DNA of 13,491 nt from contig JAANOX010000165.1 of assembly GCA_020184695.1 (NCBI GenBank), forward strand, positions 1-13,491. Reading direction: 5' to 3'. Numbering within the stretch: position 1 is the stretch's first letter; each line of letters opens with the position of its first letter. This stretch comes from Histomonas meleagridis 2922-C6/04-290x. Lineage: Eukaryota > Protista > Parabasalia. The position numbers and the translations under genes are program-made. The notes under the pieces were generated by a model. The model was given only the letters and a program-made list of their open reading frames with translations. It did no database searches and was not told where the DNA came from. Below are positions 22 to 13,491 of the stretch, piece after piece.

Positions 22-90
22 GATTGGAGGGGTCTGAGGCCTCCGGAGGGGTCCGAAGGGCACCTCCGGAGGCCTCAGACCCCTCCAATC
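22..90. repeat. Perfect 28-bp GC-rich inverted repeat (hairpin) with a 13-nt loop that can close further to a C-GAA-G triloop
   Basis: 22-49 GATTGGAGGGGTCTGAGGCCTCCGGAGG is the exact reverse complement of 63-90 CCTCCGGAGGCCTCAGACCCCTCCAATC; loop 50-62 GGTCCGAAGGGCA; arms contain the internal palindromes GAGGCCTC and CCTCCGGAGG. Confidence 0.97.
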
Positions 91-157: not shown

Positions 158-726
158 GCATTATATACCTACCGTTTTTTGTGGAAAATGAATATATTGT
201 CACTTTTTACCAATGGAAAAAAAAAGAAGCAGATCTAAAAAACAAAAGCAGATCAAAATAAATTACATTGCAACAAATACATTCAACAAGTTTATCAGTC
301 AATAATATAATATTAATATTATACGAAATATTCAAGTTAATCAAAATATTCAAACAAGATCAAATATTGAAACAAGTCCAATAAAGCAAACTCATGTAAA
401 AAACATACCAAATATATACCCATATCTTAATGAAATTGTTAAAAATGTATATAGAAGTTCAAAAGTAACAAGATGGACTGCAGGTATACATATATAATGT
501 TCGATGGTTTATTTTTATTTCCCATCGTCCTATTCAATTTTCGAAGAGCAAATGCCCCTTCCAGCAATTTCAACACTCATTAAAGAACTAAGTTCTGAAA
601 TTTTGAATCAGGGAAATTAATGGGAAAAAACAAAATAATAATAATAATATAATATGCAGCACAAAAGACATTACGTTGAATTCATCTTCTCAAGAAATGG
701 ATCAATCTGGAAGATAATATTGTGCT

Positions 727-864
727 TGGACAAAAAAAGAAGAAAAAAAACTCAAAGATTTAAACAGCGACTTTGGTGGTGATCTCAATTGATAAATGGA
801 ATATTTACCTGATCGCTCTTCAGAGTCAATAAATAAGAAAATAACAAGAATGAACGTTAAGTAA
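727..864 (+). pseudogene. Myb/SANT-like repeat remnant
   Basis: Manual translation: WTKKEEKKLKDLNSDFGGDLN**MEYLPDRSSESINKKITRMNVK*, matching the WT.EED..L.....fG.....I...lP.Rs pattern; TGA-TAA at 790-795 and another in-frame TAA just upstream of the first W. Confidence 0.5.
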
Positions 865-919: not shown

Positions 920-1062
920 ACTGTACATTTAAAACAAAAAAATTATAGAAAACGATACGAGATAACGATTGCACTATTTACTGATTCGAAATAGTTGAGA
1001 GCGTCTCCTTCTTCATATGTGGTTATAACGTTCTCCGGAACTTTTCAATATTGATAATAATT
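920..1062 (-). pseudogene. Relic of the 3' end and downstream spacer of a Polinton pPolB gene (second, diverged copy)
   Basis: Reverse complement of 920-1046 aligns to 11181-11308 of this window at roughly 85% identity by manual alignment (..IINIEKFRRTL/TTYEEGDALNYF vs ..TITNVEKFPRTLKTTYEKGDVNNYF), with a 1-nt gap. Confidence 0.9.
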
Positions 1063-1902
1063 AATGCATAAAAATTTTCGTTCAAAGAACGTTAATCTCA
1101 TACAAATTTCACTACTATACACTATTATTAAACGAAGATTTTTACAAAATAATGGAAAATCGTAAATCCAGGGCAAAAAAGTGCCAACCGACAAACACTC
1201 TCAATCATCTCAGAAAAAAATCGAATGCGTTTGTGGGTCATTGAATTTTTTTTAGCAGTGGCAAAATATCAGAAAGCGCGTGATTTTGTCAAAATATACG
1301 TGGCGCCAAAAGTTCATTTGAGCCAAAGCCTCAATGCATCTTCCTGAAAGTTGTTCAACCAAAGATTGATCTTGTGTTTCCTTTCAAGGGGGCCAATATG
1401 AAGAAGATCACTACTCCATTTTGCCATTTGGACTAATCATGGTTATGACATTTTCGAATATTGAATTTAGGTCCACCAACATTTCATCCGACCACAATCA
1501 TTGATTTCGAAGCACAAGTGTTAAATGGTTTGTTTCATTCTATGTCCTAATATTCTTTCTCGCTGATAATTGATCAGTAATCAAACTCAAACAACACATT
1601 TTTCTAAAACACAATAATAACAACAATGACCTTAAGATCAGCGAAAACTCTCATTTTTTTGTTTTGTCATACTAATAATTGTTGATATCTATTTTTTTAA
1701 TTATTCCATTTTTTCCACTTAAGTTCACTGGTTAAACATATTTTATAAAGGTCTGCGTTTCAATGAAGTATCGATCACATTTGTTGATTTCCTACTTTTG
1801 GTTTTACATTTGTTACGGGTTAGGTCCTAACAACATTAGTCTAATTGGAAAACAACATAACCGTCCGGACAAAACCGTTAATTTATAAATTTGCAGATAG
1901 AA

Positions 1903-3671
1903 ATGGAAATAAAAGAAAGCACCCCCATTGAATTCATTGATTATATTAAAGGGAGAATTGGGATGAGTGCTTTTGATGATTTCAAGATCGATATCAAAGA
2001 CCAAATGGCGATCTATCGATGTCCATATTCAATTGTTGAGTCCAAAAAAAGAGACATTACATCATATGTTTGTTATAAGTGCAGGTTCAAGGATTGCCCA
2101 AGCCACTTCAGTGTGAAGTTCAGAGATTCAATCCTATGTATTTGTTCGGGTGAATGGATTCACAATCACTGCATAAATAAGAGATACGTTGAAAGTTTTT
2201 TTTGCCTTCTTACTTCAAAACAAAAAGAAGAAATTAATGATTTGGGTTCTAAAGGTGCTTCGCCATATTTTATTAGAAAAAATTTGAATTTATCAATTTC
2301 TTCAAATCAACTATACAACTATTCAAGAATGGAGTAAGAAGTATATTGTGACATTTCAAAAAAAAAATGATGGTTTCCATGTTTATCTTTAATTAATAGC
2401 TCCATTATATCCAAACCCTATGCACAAGATATTCGTGTGATGGACGATACTATGTGTACTAATAAGTACAGGTATCCAATAATTTTATGTTATTGCTACG
2501 ACGAGAATGACAAAGCTCAAATGATTGCTTTAGGTATTTTATTGGGGAAAACATTCAATGATTTTGTTGATTTGTTTATTATTCTTTCCAAATATATTAA
2601 TTTTAGAATATTTATATGTGATCGACTGGAATCTCAAAGAAAAGCAATTAAATATGTTTTTAAAACTTCAAAGATTGTATTTTGTAGAGTTCATATATTG
2701 AGAAATGTATCAGATCATTGTGGTGTTAATTCAGTTATATATCGAACGCTAATAAAATTATTTCATGGAGAAATGAAAGCATCAGATTTCGTTTCACTGA
2801 TTAATAATGAAATCCAAAAAAATACGAAAGAAAAATTTCATTTGCAGTTATTATTGAAACATCTTAAGTATTATGATTCGGAGATATTAGCTCATTATAG
2901 ACTAAGAAATCATTATACTTCGAATTTAGCAGAAGGAAATTTTTCTACAAATAAAAATTGGATAGATCATAAAATTGTTACATTAAAAGATATCATTGAT
3001 GCATTTTTATTACATGCAGAAATGCTTATTAAAAAAATATTGCAACAATAAGGATTTAAATCAATTTAGATTTATATCACGGTAAGCAACTTGGTAATTT
3101 ATGTTTCAATATTCTAAATACTGAATACGAAAAAATGAATAATATTATAAAAGTATATGTACAGATTTCTCCATTATTAAATAGTATTAATTCTGAAGAT
3201 TGTAATTGTAAAGTTAAAACAGAATTTGGTTTACCTTGTTGCCACATATTGTTTAATAGGTATAAAGCTGGTCTATTTCCTTTGGTCAAAGAAGAAGATA
3301 TTCCAGACATTTATTTTACACAGCATTTTGATGAAACAGAAGAAACAGAAATTCAAACCGTGCAAGTAAATAATAATTATAATATGTATAAGTATACAAA
3401 TCTTATGGATATGGTATCTCCAATAGCAGCAGATCAAATAGAAATCCAGAAATACATAAATTATTTGACAATCTTTTCATAGGATTTAACAATTTAAAAA
3501 CATGTTCCACAGGATCGCCTGAATTTATTGCACAGAGAGGTCGACCAATCACAAAACAATCTTCATTTATTGATCACCAAAAAAAAATGCGGTGCACATA
3601 AAACAAAAAGAACATATCGATGCCATAAATGTGGGAAAGAAGGATATAACTCAGCAACATGTAAACTATAA
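1903..3671 (+). pseudogene. Mutator-like (MULE) DDE transposase, disrupted by stops and frameshifts
   Basis: N-terminal FAR1/WRKY-like C-x4-C...H-x-H (CRFKDC...HNH); MULE core DDTMCTNKYRYP (first D), FICDR (second D), CRVHILRN (CxxH) and TSNLAEGNF (E); SWIM finger CNCKVKTEFGLPCCHI; RGRP in a shifted frame; C-terminal knuckle CHKCGKEGYNSATC (3621-3662, His to Tyr). In-frame stops at 2335, 2368, 3049 and 3480, plus frameshifts. Confidence 0.92.
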
Positions 3672-3720
3672 TAAGAGAATTAGACTCATATAAAGCAGTG
3701 GGAAATAAAAATAAAAAGAA

Positions 3721-3903
3721 AAGAATGATGAAAGATAAACAAAAAGAATGCTGAAAGATAAACAAAAATAATAACAAAAGTAATAAGAAAAGAATGATAA
3801 AAGATAAACGCGAAGAATAATAAAATATAAACTCAAAGAATGATGAAAGTAAATAAAAAAGAATGCTGAAAGATAAACGCAAAAATTAACGAAAGATAAA
3901 CGC
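3721..3903. repeat. 23-bp period minisatellite, about 7 degenerate units (consensus AAGAATGATGAAAGATAAAC + AAA/GC)
   Basis: Units start at 3721, 3744, (3767), 3790, 3813, 3836 and 3859; partial unit at 3891-3903. Confidence 0.9.
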
Positions 3904-4107
3904 AAAAAATAGAAGGGGCGACAAAGCCGTTTAAAAAACCGCCAAAATATATTTTTTGAATATTGGCCTAAATAAAGAACATGCCATCATTCAAAATACA
4001 ATATTTTGTAAAATATTGTTTTGTATTATATATATTGGGATATTATCCCATATCAACATACAGATATTAAGTAAGAAAACTATTTTTATTAAATATTTTT
4101 CGTTTAC

Positions 4108-4156: not shown

Positions 4157-4483
4157 ACAACATTCTAAAAGTTGGAAAAATAAAGAAAATCGATAATATC
4201 TAAAAAACGGCCAGACAAAATTTCTCGATATCATATATCCATTGTCTATATGATTCATTAACTCAAATATTTTGAAATTATCAAAATTTTATCGTAACGT
4301 TTTTCAATATTATTAATTGAGTATATCTGGTCGGATGGTGAAGCCGTTTAAAATTATAAAGAGATACAAGAAGAAAAATTTACTAAGTTAATTGGGATAA
4401 TTTAACATTTTATCTAATGGTAGAATATTTAGTCGGAGATAAAAGTCTTGAATTTCCTAATGATACCATAATACATAATTCTA

Positions 4484-4532
4484 TGACAATGTTTAATAAT
4501 TTTTGGACAACCGTAAAACCCCATTCAAAATG
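4484..4532. repeat. Left arm of the 49-bp inverted repeat flanking the tyrosine recombinase
   Basis: TGACAATGTTTAATAATTTTTGGACAACCGTAAAACCCCATTCAAAATG matches the reverse complement of 5522-5570 at 48/49 positions. Confidence 0.96.
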
Positions 4533-4587
4533 TTGGACTAAAATAAAACATTTTTTTAAATGATTTTTTATTAAATTAAGCTGGATA

Positions 4588-5498
4588 TTATTGTTCCAGC
4601 ACTCTTCGTTCCATTTTGGTGTATTCCATAAATATCGTGGATCGCCATCTTCCATGGCGTTGAATTACATTATCTTGGATACCCAGTTTTGCGGCAGCAT
4701 TCGCTCCGCCTTTTCTTAGGAATTGGGGAAAATATTCATTGTGTTCTTTAATTCCAATTTTTATCATAATACTTTTTGATTTTCCTCGAGAATGTTTTAT
4801 TAAAAAATTTAATAACCTTTTCATTTTAATCGAATTGTTTGAGCGAAAAAAAAAGTTGAACCCAATTAAACGAATTATGCGGTTGCTTGATAGGGTCACC
4901 CTTTATTATTATGAAACACATAGTACCACATGACAATGAATCATTTTTTGATCGTTTAATATTCAGATAAATTCCATCTTCTTCAATTTTAATGTCATTA
5001 AACTCAAGATTTGATAATTCAGAAAATTTTAGAAAACCAAAAAATGAAAGAGAAATTGCAGTAAAAAATTCTACATCTGAATATAAATTCTGATTCATAA
5101 TTTTATAAATTTTAATCATATTTTCTTTTGTAATTGTTTTTTTTTTGCTTTTTTAAGAAAAACTCCAAGTTTTCTTTGAATTAATTTAATGTAATTTCGG
5201 AATTCAAGTGATTTCGTATCATCATTTTGTTTTTGTGAATTGTAGTAATAAGAATAACTAGAAATAAATAATTTAAATGTGCTATATTGTATCGGTGATT
5301 GACAAACATTTAATTTAAAGTGTAAAAATCCTCTAATTTTTGCTTCTGTTAGAGGAAATGGTGGAGGAGCTCCTCGTATTTCTTTCATTGTTCTTTCATA
5401 ACTATTTAAATATGATTTATATGTGCTAACAGATGAAGAGAATTAATAGCGAATGCTTCCGACTCTTTTGTTGCCTCAACGAAGTCTTCAAAGTTCAT
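4588..5498 (-). pseudogene. Tyrosine recombinase of DIRS/Crypton type, about 300 codons, frameshifted and catalytically degenerate
   Basis: Reconstructed from ATG 5498: MNFEDFVE..NSL/SSVSTYKSYLNSYERTMKEIRGAPPPFPLTEAKIRGFL (core-binding domain), FFGFLKFSEL (R box, R to K), IKRSKND (catalytic K), YFPQFLRKGGANAAAKLG (HxxR box, H to Q) and IQRHGRWRSTIFMEY (GxW and catalytic Y). Several frameshifts, two of them at A-runs. Confidence 0.9.
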
Positions 5499-5500
5499 TT

Positions 5501-5520
5501 TGTGACCGGCCACGGTCACA
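5501..5520. repeat. 8-bp perfect inverted repeat TGTGACCG-GCCA-CGGTCACA just upstream of the recombinase start
   Basis: Read directly from the sequence. Confidence 0.9.
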
Positions 5521-5521
5521 T

Positions 5522-5570
5522 CATTTTGAATGGGGTTTTACGGTTGTGCAAAAATTATTAAACATTGTCA
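5522..5570. repeat. Right arm of the 49-bp inverted repeat flanking the tyrosine recombinase
   Basis: See 4484-4532; lies about 24 nt upstream of the reconstructed recombinase ATG. Confidence 0.96.
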
Positions 5571-5591
5571 CAAAATGGAAGTTATTGTCAA

Positions 5592-6747: not shown

Positions 6748-7017
6748 TTATTTCTTTTGTCCAACTAGCGCATTTGCTACACCATCTATAACAGGTGAGA
6801 ATTTATCTGCTATTTTAATTCCTTTTGCAATAGCACCTGCATGTCCAGGTAAATTTTCTATTCCAGGTATTTTACCTACTGTATTTACAACAGGTTTAGC
6901 TACTTTATTCCATACATTACCAATAAATCTTCCAACTGGTTTAATAATTTTATCTCTGAAGTAAGCACCTGCTTTTTTAAATTCATTTTTAATTTTGTTC
7001 CAAAAACCCCAAGCCAT
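6748..7017 (-). CDS. 89-aa basic amphipathic protein; candidate membrane-lytic virion protein (adenovirus pVI-like)
   Basis: Likely start MAWGFWNKIKNEFKKAGAYFRDKII at 7017 (the ORF track extends it to 7092 through low-complexity sequence); i/i+3/i+4 hydrophobic periodicity with Lys on the other face. Function is inferred. Confidence 0.65.
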   Translation of the reverse strand: MAWGFWNKIKNEFKKAGAYFRDKIIKPVGRFIGNVWNKVAKPVVNTVGKIPGIENLPGHAGAIAKGIKIADKFSPVIDGVANALVGQKK

Positions 7018-7370: not shown

Positions 7371-8997
7371 ATGTATTATAATGATACGCAATCTAAAAAT
7401 GAACAAGATGATCAAGGTAATGTTGGTGCTTATTTTGATCATCTTAAAGATTTAATTGCTAAAAATGATGGTACTCGTTCTATTATTTTAAGAACTGAAG
7501 ATTGTCATGATCAAAATGCACCTTTTAATCAATCACAAGAAACTAGATTAAGAATTACTCATGGTGATCATATGGTTTCACAAATAACTGAAGGTTTTAT
7601 TAATTTTAAACTTAGAATAACTGTACAATTATCAAAAGCTATTTCATCTAGTAATTTGACAGATCCTGAGAATTTAGCTAAAATATTTATAGGTTTTAAG
7701 AGTTCTAATCAATTATTAGATCAATGACAAATTATGTCTAATAATATTTCTACTGGTTATCAACAAAATGAATGTTGTCGTGAAGGTTATTGTTATTCTA
7801 CAATTAAACCCTATGCTGAAAAGAAAACTAGAAAATATACACATTCTTTATATGAAAATGTTTCAGAATATTCTCAATCTGTTTGTGGTACTTATGTTGA
7901 TTTAAATACAATTGCAGATGGAAATAAACATGATATCGAATTTGAAATGAATCTTCCATTTGAAGATATATTAGCTTTACAAGCATTTGATTTATATCCA
8001 AATAGATTAGTTGGTGATATTGAATTAAAGTTTTATGTTATTCAAAATGGTTTAATTTGGTGTCAAGTAGATCCACGTAAAATTAAAGAAGTTAAAGAAT
8101 TTTTAGAAGATTCTTCTATTAATGCTACATTTAATAATTTACCTTTATTTACTCATGGTTTTACTCAAATTGGTAATTCTGCTAATATAACTACTACATT
8201 TAAATGTGATACTGAAACTAATCATACTATTGATACTGCAACTGAGAATGTTTCTTTATATTGTACAGGTTTAACAGTAGTTTCATGTAAATCTAATATG
8301 TTTGGATTTGGAGTTAAAGAAGAAACTTTAAATAAAATAGCTCAAATACTTCAACAACCTGGAGGTTTATTAATTCCTTCACAACAATTAGATTATAATG
8401 CATTTGCTTTAGCTGCTACTGAATCTGGTATACAATCTACTATTAATATGCCTTTATTTAATGTTACAACTATTACAGTTGTATTTCCAAAAACATGCTA
8501 ATGATTATACTTGTTTTGATAATCCTATTTATAATAATGTACAATTAACTATTGCAGGTCAAAATTATCCTGATGAACCAGTAAGTACTTTAGGTGCTAG
8601 ATTTTTACAATATCAATTAGTTGCTTCTGATTTAGATGGTGGTATACAATGTACTAAAGAATTCGAAGATTCTTTAACTATGGATAGAAATGATTCTAAT
8701 GGTACAAGATATAATAATACATTAAGTGATGCTACCTCATTTATGCTTAATATACAATGTGAACGTTCGCGTGGTGGTTACGTATTTGATGGTTTAGATT
8801 CTAATGGACAAAATATACCAATACAAATTAAGGGACAACCTATTTATACACAAGCTAATGACACTTATTATAATGTCGATGATGCTGGAAATCATCCACC
8901 TGCACCACAATTATTTATATGTCGTGATACTTATTTCACATTAGATTTGCATAACGGTTTGAAATATTATGCTAATGGTACTCCTGATGGTTATTAA
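7371..8997 (+). pseudogene. Probable major capsid protein (about 540 aa), interrupted by one TGA and one +1 frameshift
   Basis: ORFs 7371-7727 and 7734-8501 are in the same frame, separated only by TGA 7725-7727 (LLDQ*QIMSNN). Removing one A from the A5 run at 8489-8493 joins 8461-8997 (VVFPKHANDYTCFDNP). Beta-strand-like, Asn/Thr/Gly-rich sequence, and its size and position suit a double jelly-roll MCP; fold not verified. Confidence 0.7.
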
Positions 8998-9064
8998 ATA
9001 AAAAATTATTTCCAATTAGATCTCATTTTTTTTAGATTAAAAAAAATTGAAATTATTTTTTTGT

Positions 9065-9304
9065 TTAGTGGATGACTGCATAGATGGCTGCAGTTAGTTG
9101 TTCATAAAACTTTTGAACAACATCAGGGCGCAAATTTGGTCCAGAAGTTTCGATCCAATGCATGAGTAAATCTACACTTCCTGGTACAAGGCATTCGATT
9201 GGCTCTCGTGTGTTCTCATACGTGCTTCAATGGACGAGAAAAGTCACAATACCATTCTCGAATCTAATTGCCGAGATGCTTTGGACGCTATACTCAGGTT
9301 CCAT
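9065..9304 (-). pseudogene. 79-codon chromodomain-containing ORF with one in-frame TGA (absent from the ORF track)
   Basis: MEPEYSVQSISAIRFENGIVTFLVH*STYENTREPIECLVPGSVDLLMHWIETSGPNLRPDVVQKFYEQLTAAIYAVIH*; fits EY.VE.I...R...G...YLVKW..Y..TWEP.E.L, with TGA (9227-9229) at the conserved Trp; AAAATG start context. Confidence 0.72.
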
Positions 9305-9326
9305 TTTAGTTGGAAAAAATATGATG

Positions 9327-11246
9327 CCAGTGATGAACAAATATTCAAAGGCCCTGATTGTGGATTTAAATTATTAAATTATTTACCAAATAACTCAACT
9401 TGTTATTTCCATAATTTAGCTTATGATTCTAAATTTATTGCTAAATTTGGAATAATAAAAATCCACAATTAAGGGTACAAAAGTATTATCAATGGACGTT
9501 AAATTCAATGATAAATTAATTTATTTTAGAGACACATTACCTATTCTTACCTGCAAACTTAAATTATTACCTTCAATGTTTGGTATTGAAGGAATCAAAA
9601 AAGAATTATTCCCCTACCGTTATTACACCTTAGAACGTTTAAAATCTGGGGTAGGGTTAATCGATGAAGCAGGTATTTATGAAGACAAACCTTGGGATGA
9701 AAACAAATATGTTGAATTCTTTACGAATATCAATAACATCCCTAATTGTCGCATAGATGAAGCCACTTTTAACATGTGGGAATATGCGATATTTTATTGT
9801 CGTCAAGACGTTACTATATTACGGGAAGGGTTTAACAGATTCTGCATTGGTTTTCAACAATCATTTAATATTTCACCTTTTAATTATTTATCTATTTCTT
9901 CTTTAGCCAATGCTGTATTTACAAACAAAGTTTATTCAGTTAATCAGAATTTATTTCAAGTAGGTGGTCACGTTAGACACTTTTTATCAAGAGCAGTTTA
10001 TGGAGGTAGATGCATGACTGCATACAACAAAAAGTGGCATGTCAAAGAAGAATTATGTGACTTTGACGCCGTATCATTATATCCCTCCGCTATGGCTCGT
10101 ATAAGTGTTATTAACGGTCCACCGAAAGTTATTCAAGAAGATCAATTAAATTTAAATTACTTAAATGCAAATACAAATGCATATGTTGTTGAAATTCAAA
10201 TTACAAAAGTTAGCAAACATTATCCCTTCCCTCTTATAGTTCAAAAGATTAATGGTTTAAACCTAAATGACGACAATAACATTAGTGAAGAAAATCCCGT
10301 CACTATGGTCGTCGACAATATAGCCTTGGAAGATCTTATAGTTTACCAAAATATACAATTCAAACTAGTACAAGGTTATTATTGGGATGAGGGTTATGAT
10401 CCCACCATTCAAGGTGTTATCCAAGAAATATTCCAAAAACGGGTGGAATATAAACGTCAAAATAACCCTCTCCAACAAATATATAAATTAATTATGAATA
10501 GTTGTTACGGCAAAACGATAGAAAAGCCGATCAACAAGGAATGGAAGTATTTGAAGAAAGGCGATAGAGCCGATAACTACGCCTCTAAAAATTACTTCCG
10601 TATAATCGAACGCATAAAAATTGAAGATTCTGATATAGAATCCTTCAATATAAAACGTCCTATAGATAAGCATTTTAACTTATCATTATTAGGCGTTCAA
10701 GTATTAAGCATGTCGAAACGTATAATGAACGAAGTGATGTGCTTAGCATATGACATTGGCTGTAAAATCTTTTATCAAGATACAGACTCAATGCATATAG
10801 TAAAATCGGATTTACCTAAATTAGAAACAGCCTTCGAGACTAAATATAATAGAAAATTAATAGGTAATAATTTAGGGCAATTCCATTCCGATTTTACTAG
10901 TGATGATGATAGAAGCGATGTCAACTGCGCAGTTGAAAGCTACTTCATCATGAAGAAAACCTATATCGATAAATTATTATATAATGATGGTGGTATAGGT
11001 TATATGTCTAGGGCAAAAGGTATACCTACCGATACTAGATATATACATGCAAATCTTGATTATGATGATGATATAATGAAATTGTATCGTTCTTTATATA
11101 AAGGTAATGAAATAGAATTTAATTTATTATTAGGTACAACCAAATTTAAATTAAATTCTAATCAAACTATCACTAATGTCGAAAAGTTCCCGAGAACGTT
11201 AAAGACCACATATGAAAAAGGAGACGTTAACAACTATTTTAAATAA
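9327..11246 (+). pseudogene. Protein-primed family B DNA polymerase (pPolB); 5'-truncated or atypical, with one +1 frameshift
   Basis: ExoII YFHNLAYD, ExoIII YCRQDV, motif A DFDAVSLYPSAM, motif B KLIMNSCYGK, motif C YQDTDS, and K-Y...KG. Removing one A from the A5 run at 9457-9461 joins the two ORFs (GIIKSTIKGTKVLSMDV). No ExoI DxE motif found upstream. The start coordinate marks where similarity becomes visible. Confidence 0.95.
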
Positions 11247-11463
11247 GTAAAAAGTGCAATCGTTATTTTGTATCGTTCTTCTGAATTTTTTTGTTTTGAA
11301 TGTACAGTTCTATCGTCATTCAAAAAGTGAAAAGTGCCAAAATGCTTAACGGTTTTTGAGCGTAACTTTGAAAATGAATGGTTTATATTTTATATCTCTC
11401 AAAGTCGGGCCATGTAAGATTATATCAAAATTGTGATACATTCAATTGACTTCACTGAATAAT

Positions 11464-12790
11464 ATGCAAACTAATAATAATTGCATGTGTGTGATGGAGG
11501 GTGAACGAAAGGCTTCCAGCGAATCAACCATAACCTCGAATAACATAAGTCCAGTTTGTGTTTTGGGTAACGTGGCACAAGGGGAAAAGTTGGACGTAGT
11601 GCCCCCCGGTGGAAGCCAACGCAGTACTGTTGATAGTGAAAACAAAACACAGGGCACATTTCCTGTGTTGGGCGTAATTCGCGACTCCAGAACTGGGACT
11701 TCTGTGTTAAGTGAGGAATCTGAGCTTGAGAGTATGTCTTCTTCTCAGTCTGAGTCGGAAGAACCTCCTAGACCCAAGAACTGGAAGTATGAGTTCCCTT
11801 ATTATTTCGATGAGGGTAACGATGATTCTTCTAGTCAAGCATTCTCGCAAGAGATGAATGGGTACTATGAAGTTGAATCAATAGTAAACTTCATGGTGGA
11901 GGAAGACTCAAATGGAGTCGGCAATGCACTTTGGTGTGTTTGTTGGAAAAGAATAAAGGGTGAACCAACACCCCTAAACAATTGGGAACCAACAAAACAC
12001 TCTTAGTCATTGTAAGAACGCGGTAGCCTTCTTTATAGCTATGCTTAAAGATGGTAGTTCCAAGAAGTTTTCTCCACCTTCTTCGCGTTTGATTCCTGCA
12101 CTGAGAGCCGCTGAAGCCGGTAACTTGTTTACTGCGCAAGAGTATCAGAGGTACTTTCATACCAATAGGTCTACTCTTCTGGGTATGAGACAAAAGTATC
12201 TAGACATTCAGCGGAAAGAAGACGATTTGGTGTTCTACCTGAAGGGCATTGATAGTACTCCACGTACTAAAAAAGCTGAACAACATGCCCTAAGGGTAGT
12301 CATCAAAAAAGGCTGGGATAATCTAAGCCACGATTCTCGAGAAAATGTTTACTCGAGAATGGACGAACTAAGGTTCGAATGTCCAGTGGCACATAGATTC
12401 ATTTCTCAGCTATACTCTCGCGAGCGTCAAATAGAAAGGTTTCCTGCAGTTGTCCCTAAGCCACTGCATGATAGTGTTCATCCTGAAAAGTTTGAAACTA
12501 AAAATAATAATACTAAAAAGGATGATCCACCACCTAAAAAGCAGTACTTAGAGGACATTCATCCGGATACTGAGGAAATCTTTCTAAATGACCCCGTTTT
12601 AAAGCCAGTAGCCTTAATGGCACCGCGTCCTCGGGAGGATTATGAAGTTGGTCTACCAAAAACAAGAGCTCCCGATGAGATTGCGTATGCCAAGAAATAC
12701 CCCCATCTAAAGGTGGTTACGCCTAGGACAAGACCTCAACTTTCACGAAAGAGTCCTAAAAGGCCACAAGATCCACCAGGAAGTCATTAA
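11464..12790 (+). pseudogene. About 441-aa protein with a central chromodomain, split by a +1 frameshift at 12001
   Basis: GYYEVESIVNFMVEEDSNGVGNALWCVCWKRIKGEPTPLNNWEPTKH; skipping T12001 continues LSHCKNAVAFFIAMLKDG into ORF 12041-12790, completing the WEP..NL.HC...I..F chromodomain helix. Ser/Glu-rich N-terminus and Pro/Lys-rich C-terminus. Confidence 0.8.
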
Positions 12791-12843: not shown

Positions 12844-13224
12844 TTAAGTGTTTTCTTCTTGAGTTTGTTGAGTTAATGTATTAGCGTATTGTTGCAATAC
12901 ATTTAATTTACCTAAGTAAGCATTATATTTATTTAAATCATTATTAAATATTTGATTTAACAATTCCATTTTAGATATTTGATAAGCTTGATCCAATTGT
13001 TCAGGCGTTATATTTTGTAAAGGATTCTTTATAGTAGGATGATATTTTTCATCTATAAATTTATAAATTTGTTTTCTAAGTAAATTATGATATTTATTAT
13101 ACACAGTTACAGTTACTGTTATTACATTTTTATTTTTTACAATAGAAAAGGAAGGTTTAATATTAATTGCACTAAAATCACAATCTTTAAATTCTTGTGC
13201 AAAGCATGTATAAAGAGCTTCCAT
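12844..13224 (-). CDS. Hypothetical 126-aa protein
   Basis: ORF track; AATCACTTCATT motif (reverse complement at 13232-13243) upstream; the TAA stop is part of TAAA. Confidence 0.7.
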   Translation of the reverse strand: MEALYTCFAQEFKDCDFSAINIKPSFSIVKNKNVITVTVTVYNKYHNLLRKQIYKFIDEKYHPTIKNPLQNITPEQLDQAYQISKMELLNQIFNNDLNKYNAYLGKLNVLQQYANTLTQQTQEENT

Positions 13225-13263: not shown

Positions 13264-13491
13264 ATGGAAAACGATATTAATATTGATGCCTTAGATAATA
13301 TGATTGATTATTGTTTATATAAAAATAAACCTAAATTAAATGAAGAATTAATAAGTGAAATTCATCCAGAAGTAAAATGTACCTTATAATTCTATAAATA
13401 TAGTAGTAGGTAGACAAAGAAGTGGGAAAACTCAATGTATAATTAGAGAAATTATTAAAATTAGTAATATTAGTCCTAGAACTCATTTATT
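13264..13491 (+). pseudogene. 5' part of an A32/FtsK-like genome-packaging ATPase, frameshifted near 13381 and cut by the window end
   Basis: ATG 13264 (MENDINIDALDNMIDY..HPEVKC); the +1 frame from 13382 reads PYNSINIVVGRQRSGKTQCIIREIIKIS, with Walker A GxxxxGKT at 13409-13432 after a hydrophobic strand. Confidence 0.85.

What the first reader, a model, noticed from the sequence alone, without database searches (positions are those of the whole stretch)
9065..12790. Polinton-like virus with two different stand-alone chromodomain genes flanking its DNA polymerase
Seen: a 79-codon antisense chromodomain ORF (9304-9065) directly upstream of pPolB, and a ~441-aa protein with a central chromodomain (11464-12790) directly downstream. 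Neither appears whole in the ORF track. Established: chromodomains bind methyl-lysine through a Y/W/(Y,F) aromatic cage; in chromoviruses and in some Polinton/virophage integrases they are fused to the integrase. Here they are not fused to any integrase. CD1 keeps Y-(W)-Y if the TGA was TGG; CD2 keeps Y and W but has Ile at the third position. Inference: a histone-mark reader pair that could steer integration into heterochromatin, shield the provirus from silencing, or sense chromatin state for reactivation.
Basis: partly seen in the sequence, partly recalled or inferred. Interest (0 to 1): 0.82.

Follow-up and report, generated by a model that had tools for sequence, protein, structure and literature searches.

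The report
Protist virus carries free chromodomain genes
A DNA virus integrated in a protist genome (likely Histomonas meleagridis, a poultry parasite) has two unrelated stand-alone chromodomain genes that would likely act as decoys or adaptors against host chromatin silencing, and their position on either side of the polymerase likely results from a rearrangement of this one copy.

Summary
Both genes are real chromodomain genes in an endogenous Metamonada-type Polinton-like virus, most likely of Histomonas meleagridis. CD1 (9304-9065, in-frame TGA) belongs to a 68-79 aa family with intact members. Its profile hits LHP1/HP1, and a confident model of an intact member matches HP1-type chromodomains. 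CD2 (11464-12790) has seven annotated H. meleagridis relatives and weaker, sub-threshold chromodomain support. It follows pPolB in other copies too.

The 'pair flanking the polymerase' does not hold. This pPolB lacks its N-terminus and Exo I motif and starts at a breakpoint 11 nt from CD1's ATG. Other copies continue there with polymerase sequence. CD1 lies on a single contig in each DNA run and sits convergent to the capsid gene. Of 88 related pPolB loci, 1 carries a CD1 relative and 0 carry CD2.

The third cage residue is Ile/Val in all CD2 copies and aromatic in only 2 of 4 CD1 members. Best reading: swappable accessory genes that likely work as chromatin decoys or adaptors (about 0.4), not as integration targeting. 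I found no published description in ten searches. New variant of a known kind.

The parts
9065..9304 (-). CD1: stand-alone chromodomain gene (chromo fold plus two C-terminal helices) with an in-frame TGA at 9227-9229; convergent with the capsid gene
   Evidence: TGA present in contigs of X1, X2 and X7
9305..9316 (.). Breakpoint between the CD1 segment and the truncated pPolB (A-rich, 11 nt upstream of the CD1 ATG)
   Evidence: (depth step, loose end before 9316, contig 8978-9344 across it)
9316..11246 (+). pPolB lacking its N-terminal part and Exo I motif; frame change near 9456 not supported by the contig spanning it
   Evidence: Pfam DNA_pol_B_2 E 2.4e-39
11247..11463 (+). pPolB-CD2 spacer with a TCACT initiator-like motif about 12 nt before the CD2 ATG (motif recalled from trichomonad promoters); shared by other copies
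   Evidence: (records 11244-11619 and 11115-11322)
11464..12790 (+). CD2 gene, about 441 aa: low-complexity N-terminus, acidic tract, chromodomain, helical bundle, Pro/Lys-rich tail; frame change near 12001
11863..12034 (+). Chromodomain of CD2 (residues about 134-190; Y135, W161, I164; WEP motif)
   Evidence: 40 of 62 residues identical to the most distant relative P0010
12212..12439 (+). Predicted four-helix bundle of CD2, no specific fold match (coordinates mapped by hand from the P0007 model)
   Evidence: (pLDDT 82-87)
7371..8997 (+). Major capsid protein gene (Metamonada type), in three frames
   Evidence: 67-81% identity to L040; shares motifs by eye with T. foetus MCPs in PMC10120064 Table S3
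12844..13224 (-). Conserved small PLV gene of unknown function that precedes the ATPase in relatives
   Evidence: 26-39% identity in 12 of 88 loci
13264..13491 (+). 5' part of the packaging ATPase gene (Walker A motif by inspection), cut by the window end
   Evidence: 58-82% identity to ORFs of related loci; ORFs in L061 and L022 hit Pox_A32 weakly

Best explanation
CD1 and CD2 are two unrelated stand-alone chromodomain genes in an integrated Polinton-like virus, likely swappable accessory cargo whose products would act as decoys or adaptors that blunt host chromatin silencing of the provirus. Shown: both have a chromodomain (CD1 by profile and fold, CD2 by weaker profile evidence); both have intact relatives; CD2 sits in the variable slot after pPolB in several copies; the CD1-pPolB contact is a breakpoint. 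Inferred: CD1's normal place is the variable slot convergent to the capsid gene; both were captured from outside the core virus; the window is a deleted or rearranged copy that cannot prime its own replication. Proposed mechanism, untested: CD1 is a bare reader fold without an effector domain, so it would occupy histone tails or HP1 partners and compete with host readers. CD2 would dock on nucleosomes through an HP1-like acidic tract plus a cage-degenerate chromodomain, and bring in partners through its helical bundle. My odds: chromodomain identity 0.97 (CD1) and 0.9 (CD2); viral accessory cargo 0.85; not a flanking pair 0.9; decoy/adaptor role about 0.4.
For: CD1 family: P0142 (H. meleagridis, intact, 63%, E 1e-21), P0144 (41%, E 5.6e-6) and L047:365-571 (E 4.2e-12; best E 0.89 among 5 x 3847 shuffled ORFs). 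Same short length across members 29-63% alike. Profile hits LHP1 E 5.6e-4 and HP1 E 2.7e-3. Model of P0142 pLDDT 84; all listed Foldseek rows are chromo-fold structures, best E 4.5e-3, rmsd down to 1.2-1.6 A; VIA Z 7.4 and 7.0 to Oxpecker and HP1. CD2 family: 6 clusters, 7 proteins, all H. meleagridis, 43-91%; the chromodomain (40/62) and acidic tract (27/43) are the best-kept parts. P0010 and pPolB P0014 have consecutive accessions and the same 201,077-bp longest contig. Contigs about 10% divergent run from the pPolB stop into CD2. Slots are variable: relatives hold other small ORFs or nothing after pPolB, and L061 holds an HNH gene convergent to its MCP. A contig in X6 leaves the window at 9061 into a minus-strand frame ending in KEME-stop, as P0142 does (by hand). 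GC3 is 35-41% in CD1/CD2 against 27% in pPolB and 4-12% in the capsid-module frames. T. vaginalis is reported to have many HP1-like readers (PMC8638923, passages).
Against: No binding, localisation or silencing data. The cage is not conserved (CD2: Ile/Val third position in 7 of 7; CD1: Tyr in 2 of 4), so methyl-lysine competition may be weak. No sequence reaches the Pfam Chromo cut-off (best 22.1 of 25.1 bits). The CD2 chromodomain modelled poorly (pLDDT about 30-40) and ranked only 25th-29th in Foldseek, E about 2. The window's CD1 has a real stop. The genomic context of P0142 and P0144 could not be fetched, so they may not be viral. In L047 the CD1 relative also lies upstream and antisense of a (5'-truncated) pPolB, about 600 nt away, which favours some CD1-pPolB link. 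H3K9/K27 methylation in H. meleagridis was not checked.
Confidence: 0.42

Rival explanations
1. Passenger genes: host-derived chromodomain genes or fragments were picked up by the element, amplified with it, and now have no role for the virus.
For: Absent from 87 of 88 related loci and from 19 of 19 contaminated MAGs searched with the CD1 profile; degenerate cages; real stop in CD1; annotated CD2 relatives differ in length; foreign GC3.
Against: CD2 relatives 43% alike stay next to pPolB and keep the chromodomain best; CD1 keeps its length and 14 invariant columns across three members 29-39% alike, one in another organism's pPolB locus.
Confidence: 0.25
2. Nucleic-acid or virion role: the chromo fold binds DNA or RNA, or a non-histone partner, for example condensing or coating the viral genome, and does not read histone marks.
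For: Incomplete cages; CD1 sits next to the capsid gene; chromoshadow and CHD-type domains score almost as well as HP1 chromodomains in the fold search (Z 6.2-6.9). Nucleic-acid binding by some chromo folds is recalled, not tested.
Against: Sequence identity is higher to histone-binding chromodomains (28-32%) than to chromoshadow domains (7-11%); CD2 keeps an acidic tract before the domain; most relatives lack both genes, which is unlike a structural protein.
Confidence: 0.15
3. Integration targeting in trans: the free chromodomains bridge an integrase or recombinase to heterochromatin, as the fused domains of chromoviruses and adintoviruses are thought to do.
For: Precedent for fused domains (PMC8502044 and PMC3605345, passages); group II chromovirus domains also lack cage residues; a tyrosine-recombinase-like gene is in the window (by motif).
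Against: No fusion; the recombinase-like gene has its own 58-bp inverted repeats and no match in any of 88 loci, so it may be a separate element; relatives lack the chromodomain genes.
Confidence: 0.1
4. A conserved chromo-pPolB-chromo module whose two readers work together.
For: Layout in this window; L047 has a CD1 relative upstream and antisense of a pPolB.
Against: Breakpoint at 9315/9316, missing pPolB N-terminus, single-contig cover of CD1; no second locus with both genes among 88; the L047 polymerase is truncated at a different place and its downstream side is not held.
Confidence: 0.06

Closest known systems
Metamonada (MMN) group Maverick-Polintons/PLVs (PMC10120064; section 9, passages and supplement rows read)
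   Same: Same kind of host; pPolB, MCP and packaging ATPase; the paper lists 61 and 72 MCP hits in two H. meleagridis assemblies; MCP motifs shared by eye with its T. foetus MCPs.
   Different: The word 'chromo' does not occur in its main text; gene cargo of H. meleagridis elements is not described in the parts I read; this copy has a truncated pPolB.
Integrase-fused chromodomains of adintoviruses/Polintons and chromoviruses (PMC8502044, PMC3605345; passages)
   Same: Chromodomain on an integrating element; group II chromovirus domains also have incomplete cages.
   Different: Here the domains are separate genes, optional, and not at the C-terminus of an rve integrase; CD2 keeps cage positions 1 and 2, whereas group II lacks 1 and 3.
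HP1/LHP1/Chp1/CBX and CDY/CDYL chromodomains
   Same: Fold and motifs (for CD1; CDY family best for CD2); the Glu of the WEP/REP motif is kept.
   Different: No chromoshadow or enoyl-CoA domain detected; CD1 has REP for WEP, an L-x-P-G turn and a second helix; CD2 has loop insertions, Ile/Val at cage position 3 and an unassigned helical bundle.

Membership tests
Chromodomain (PF00385 / chromo fold) | Three-stranded sheet plus C-terminal helix matching solved chromodomains - CD1 family | tested here: met
   (model of intact member P0142); profile E 5.6e-4 to LHP1
Chromodomain (PF00385 / chromo fold) | Same fold - CD2 family | tested here: inconclusive
   Right topology but pLDDT about 30-40; Foldseek E about 2; 8 of 10 Atlas structure rows are chromodomain clusters at TM about 0.3; sequence evidence consistent
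Chromodomain (PF00385 / chromo fold) | Pfam Chromo score above the curated cut-off of 25.1 bits | tested here: not met
   Best 22.1 (P0010) and 21.9 (P0144); window CD2 domain 15.4; window CD1 and P0142 no hit
HP1-type methyl-lysine reader | Complete three-residue aromatic cage | tested here: not met
   CD2: third position Ile/Val in 7 of 7. CD1: complete only in P0144; the window copy has a stop at the Trp position; P0142 and L047 have Gly third
HP1-type methyl-lysine reader | Binding to H3K9me or H3K27me | not testable with these tools
   needs a binding assay
HP1 protein | C-terminal chromoshadow domain | tested here: inconclusive
   No Pfam hit; CD1 has no room for one; the CD2 C-terminal domain models as all-helical without a specific match
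Chromovirus/adintovirus integrase chromodomain | Fused to the C-terminus of an rve integrase | tested here: not met
   CD1 members are 68-79 aa; no rve hit in CD2 relatives or the window ORFs
Metamonada-group Polinton/PLV | pPolB | tested here: met
   5'-truncated in this copy
Metamonada-group Polinton/PLV | Major capsid protein of the Metamonada type | tested here: inconclusive
   Motif match by eye to structurally assigned T. foetus MCPs and high identity to ORFs in related loci; no Pfam or PDB sequence hit; not folded here
Metamonada-group Polinton/PLV | Packaging ATPase | tested here: inconclusive
   Only the 5' part is in the window; Walker A by inspection; no Pfam hit
Metamonada-group Polinton/PLV | Integrase (rve or YR) and terminal inverted repeats of the element | tested here: inconclusive
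   YR-like motifs at 4588-5442 without a profile hit; element ends not identified; window ends inside the ATPase

The most novel reading that the evidence does not exclude
Gut-protist Polinton-like viruses have twice captured HP1-like chromodomains and keep them as free, exchangeable anti-silencing factors, with the 76-aa CD1 family spread across viruses of different hosts: a viral counter-measure to protist heterochromatin not described for Polintons, PLVs or virophages in the papers I could search.
Probability: 0.3. Interest if true: 0.75.

Novelty: new variant of a known kind. Interest (0 to 1): 0.5.

Why it matters
How integrated Polinton-like viruses stay silent, escape silencing and reactivate in protist genomes is open. 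Chromodomains in these elements were described as integrase appendages in the papers I read. Two free chromodomain families, with small intact natural members that fold confidently, give direct test objects: peptide arrays, nucleosome binding, and comparison of CD-bearing with CD-free copies inside one genome that holds about 60-70 capsid genes. The finding also warns that gene order in a single endogenous copy can be a deletion artefact.

Tried and rejected
No whole genome is held for this window, so copies could be compared only through protein records and run contigs. Word-indexed homologue search with CD1: no candidate; the exhaustive HMMER search found the family, where 4 of 7 hits were repeat-protein noise and 1 was an unrelated multi-chromodomain protein. 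phmmer of CD1 against the PDB gave MOB1 hits at E about 0.24, rejected as chance. IMG/VR scans: CD2 none, CD1 none, MCP none, pPolB one locus, a virophage with Sputnik-type capsid hits. MAGs behind 19 of the 25 genome loci: CD1 profile 0 of 19; PF00385 1 of 19, by inspection a Ty3-type retroelement integrase. Pfam scan of 90 ORFs picked from related loci: no Chromo hit. Fold searches with the full CD2 model gave only generic helical-repeat matches (best Z 9.6 at rmsd 7.3); an HMG-box-like reading of the helical part, suggested by eye, got no support there. CD1 homodimer prediction: no answer, score 0.00, alignment not used; neither for nor against. Expression: no RNA holder listed. Four runs guessed to be RNA, all of one study, have contigs over CD2 (X5, X6) and one contig over CD1 (X7, 9104-9309); these may be DNA and are not counted as evidence of expression. 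The GC3 gap between pPolB and MCP also exists in L040 (27% vs 11%), so it does not mark CD1-pPolB-CD2 as one acquired block. Reading 920-1052 and 11175-11308 as the element's terminal repeats was rejected: the match is a pPolB 3' end at 86% identity, and viral genes continue beyond it. Earlier scan findings: nothing in three look-ups.
Full report
What is there. The window holds, left to right: GC-rich hairpins, a Myb-like pseudogene, an inverted pPolB tail, a MULE transposase, a tyrosine-recombinase-like gene between 58-bp inverted repeats, a small amphipathic ORF, a major capsid gene (7371-8997), CD1 (minus strand), pPolB, CD2, a conserved small gene and the start of a packaging ATPase. All six clusters that match CD2, and the closest pPolB (95%), are annotated as Histomonas meleagridis, so the host is very likely that parabasalid. 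No genome was held. PMC10120064 (section 9, passages and supplement rows read) lists 61 and 72 MCP hits in two H. meleagridis assemblies and defines a Metamonada MCP group; its T. foetus MCPs share motifs with the window's MCP by eye. That supplement was cut when stored, so later rows, including its transcriptome table, were not seen.

CD1 is a chromodomain. Alone it gives no Pfam hit. The exhaustive HMMER search returned 7 proteins, 2 of them full-length homologues: P0142 (H. meleagridis, 76 aa, 63%, E 1e-21) and P0144 (metagenomic, 77 aa, 41%, Pfam Chromo E 1.7e-4). A fourth member lies in metagenome contig L047 (E 4.2e-12; best shuffled control E 0.89). The three-sequence profile hits LHP1 (E 5.6e-4), HP1 and Chp1. 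The P0142 model has pLDDT 84 with three strands and two long helices. All listed Foldseek rows are chromo-fold structures, though none reaches E 1e-3, and VIA ranks Oxpecker and HP1 chromodomains first (Z 7.4 and 7.0), chromoshadow domains just behind. The Atlas feature search agrees at a borderline score of 0.90.

CD2 is probably a divergent chromodomain. Read through with X, the domain scores Pfam Chromo E 0.017; 4 of 6 relatives hit Chromo, best E 1.5e-4, none above the cut-off. The best PDB sequence matches are CDY/CDYL domains. The model has the right topology but low confidence there, and a confident four-helix bundle further on with no specific match; it was built on P0007, whose annotation lacks about 25 residues of the linker. 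Between the window and the most distant relative, the chromodomain (40 of 62) and the acidic tract before it (27 of 43) are the best-conserved parts. The frame change is absent from every contig that covers it in four runs, so the gene is probably intact in the organism.

The layout. CD2 follows pPolB in other copies: P0010 and the pPolB P0014 have consecutive accessions and the same longest contig (adjacency inferred, orientation unknown); contigs about 10% divergent run from the pPolB stop into CD2; the annotated N-termini of P0007 and P0011 match the spacer. CD1 does not normally precede pPolB, as far as these data show. Eleven relatives of 693-1025 aa first match the window at 9314-9344, after their Exo I motif (found by pattern in 10 of 11), and the window lacks that motif. 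In pPolBs of this class the N-terminus carries the terminal protein (PMC11161782, passages), so this copy likely cannot prime replication. In two DNA runs the CD1 body is covered by a single contig while both flanks are covered tens of times deeper; these depths are not copy numbers. One contig crosses both junctions with no differences, and other contigs run upstream of 9316 into polymerase-like sequence. Most copies leave the window's sequence at about 9005, right after the MCP stop, and a few at 9057-9061; one of these continues into a frame ending like P0142 (hand translation of 30 letters). I read this as a variable slot convergent to the MCP. L061 has an HNH gene in the equivalent place. 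Whether the junction is an internal deletion, a tandem junction or an inversion cannot be told here. Against this reading, the CD1 relative in L047 also lies upstream and antisense of a pPolB, about 600 nt away, though that polymerase is truncated at another place and an unrelated ORF converges on the CD gene.

Distribution. Of 88 loci fetched by pPolB similarity, 1 has a CD1 relative and 0 have CD2. Only 40 hold 1300 nt or more after the polymerase and 38 hold 400 nt or more before its frame, so absence is partly untested. The closest longer relatives keep pPolB, the small gene and the ATPase in the same order, with other small ORFs or nothing where CD2 sits. GC3 is 35-41% in the CD genes against 27% in pPolB and 4-12% in capsid-module frames, which fits later capture.

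How it likely works. The HP1 cage is Y-W-Y (PMC3605345, passages). All 7 aligned CD2 sequences have Ile or Val third. In CD1 the third position is Tyr in 2 of 4 members and the window copy has a stop at the Trp. The Glu of the WEP/REP motif is kept throughout. Selection therefore seems to keep the fold rather than a canonical trimethyl-lysine pocket. An optional, effector-less or adaptor-type reader fold carried by an integrated virus fits a decoy or adaptor against host silencing best (about 0.4). T. vaginalis is reported to have an unusually large set of HP1-like readers (PMC8638923, passages). Passenger status (0.25), nucleic-acid or virion binding (0.15) and targeting in trans (0.1) remain open. 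All functional steps are inference.

Novelty. Ten full-text searches and term look-ups in PMC10120064, PMC10675990, PMC8502044, PMC11161782, PMC8547959, PMC5803895 and two 2026 preprints found chromodomains only in integrases or nested retroelements. One preprint (10.64898/2026.06.19.733378, passage) says Metamonada PLVs remain ungrouped. Subscription papers and preprint supplements were not searchable, so a prior mention cannot be excluded. Verdict: a real and apparently undescribed kind of cargo in a known virus group; the flanking-pair idea is rejected. Interest 0.5.

Noticed in passing
window 920-1052 (-): Inverted copy (86% over 135 nt) of the pPolB 3' end and its downstream 60 nt: a remnant of a second, diverged polymerase gene.
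   Followed up: partly
window 682-861 (+): Myb-like pseudogene with several stops, converging on that pPolB remnant; Pfam Myb_DNA-binding E 3.4e-4, below the cut-off. Host gene or another cargo in the post-pPolB slot is not known.
   Followed up: partly
window 4588-5442 (-), repeats 4478-4535 and 5519-5576: Tyrosine-recombinase-like gene in three frames (motifs by inspection, no profile hit) enclosed by 58-bp inverted repeats at 93%; may be a small separate element or an invertible segment.
   Followed up: partly
window 1882-3671 (+): Broken MULE transposase with SWIM finger (Pfam MULE E 5.3e-9), followed by a 23-nt period A-rich tandem array at about 3681-3933.
   Followed up: no
window 22-90 and 108-157: Two GC-rich near-perfect hairpins at the window start, then an ORF remnant 213-617 that resembles a P-element-type transposase start by recalled motif only (no Pfam support).
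   Followed up: partly
window 6748-7017 (-): Small amphipathic ORF divergent from the MCP; relatives in L045 and L061 by tblastn, similar starts in L023, L026 and L040; resembles adenovirus protein VI by recall, untested.
   Followed up: no
L047:1-2103: CD1 relative converging on an unassigned ORF (2-334; no Pfam or PHROG hit; looks like an ssDNA-virus capsid by recall), then GC-rich non-coding DNA, then a pPolB that also starts mid-gene.
   Followed up: partly
window 9456 and 12001; MCP frame changes near 7724 and 8500: Frame changes in pPolB and CD2 are not supported by the contigs spanning them, so the window may look more decayed than the real locus; the MCP ones were not checked.
   Followed up: partly
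L002-L026: 25 contigs filed in bacterial or archaeal MAGs carry close relatives of this protist-virus pPolB, likely eukaryotic-virus contamination of those bins.
   Followed up: no
window 9057 (contig in X1): Another copy joins the MCP end and the shared terminator region to a different minus-strand gene end that does not clearly resemble CD1.
   Followed up: no
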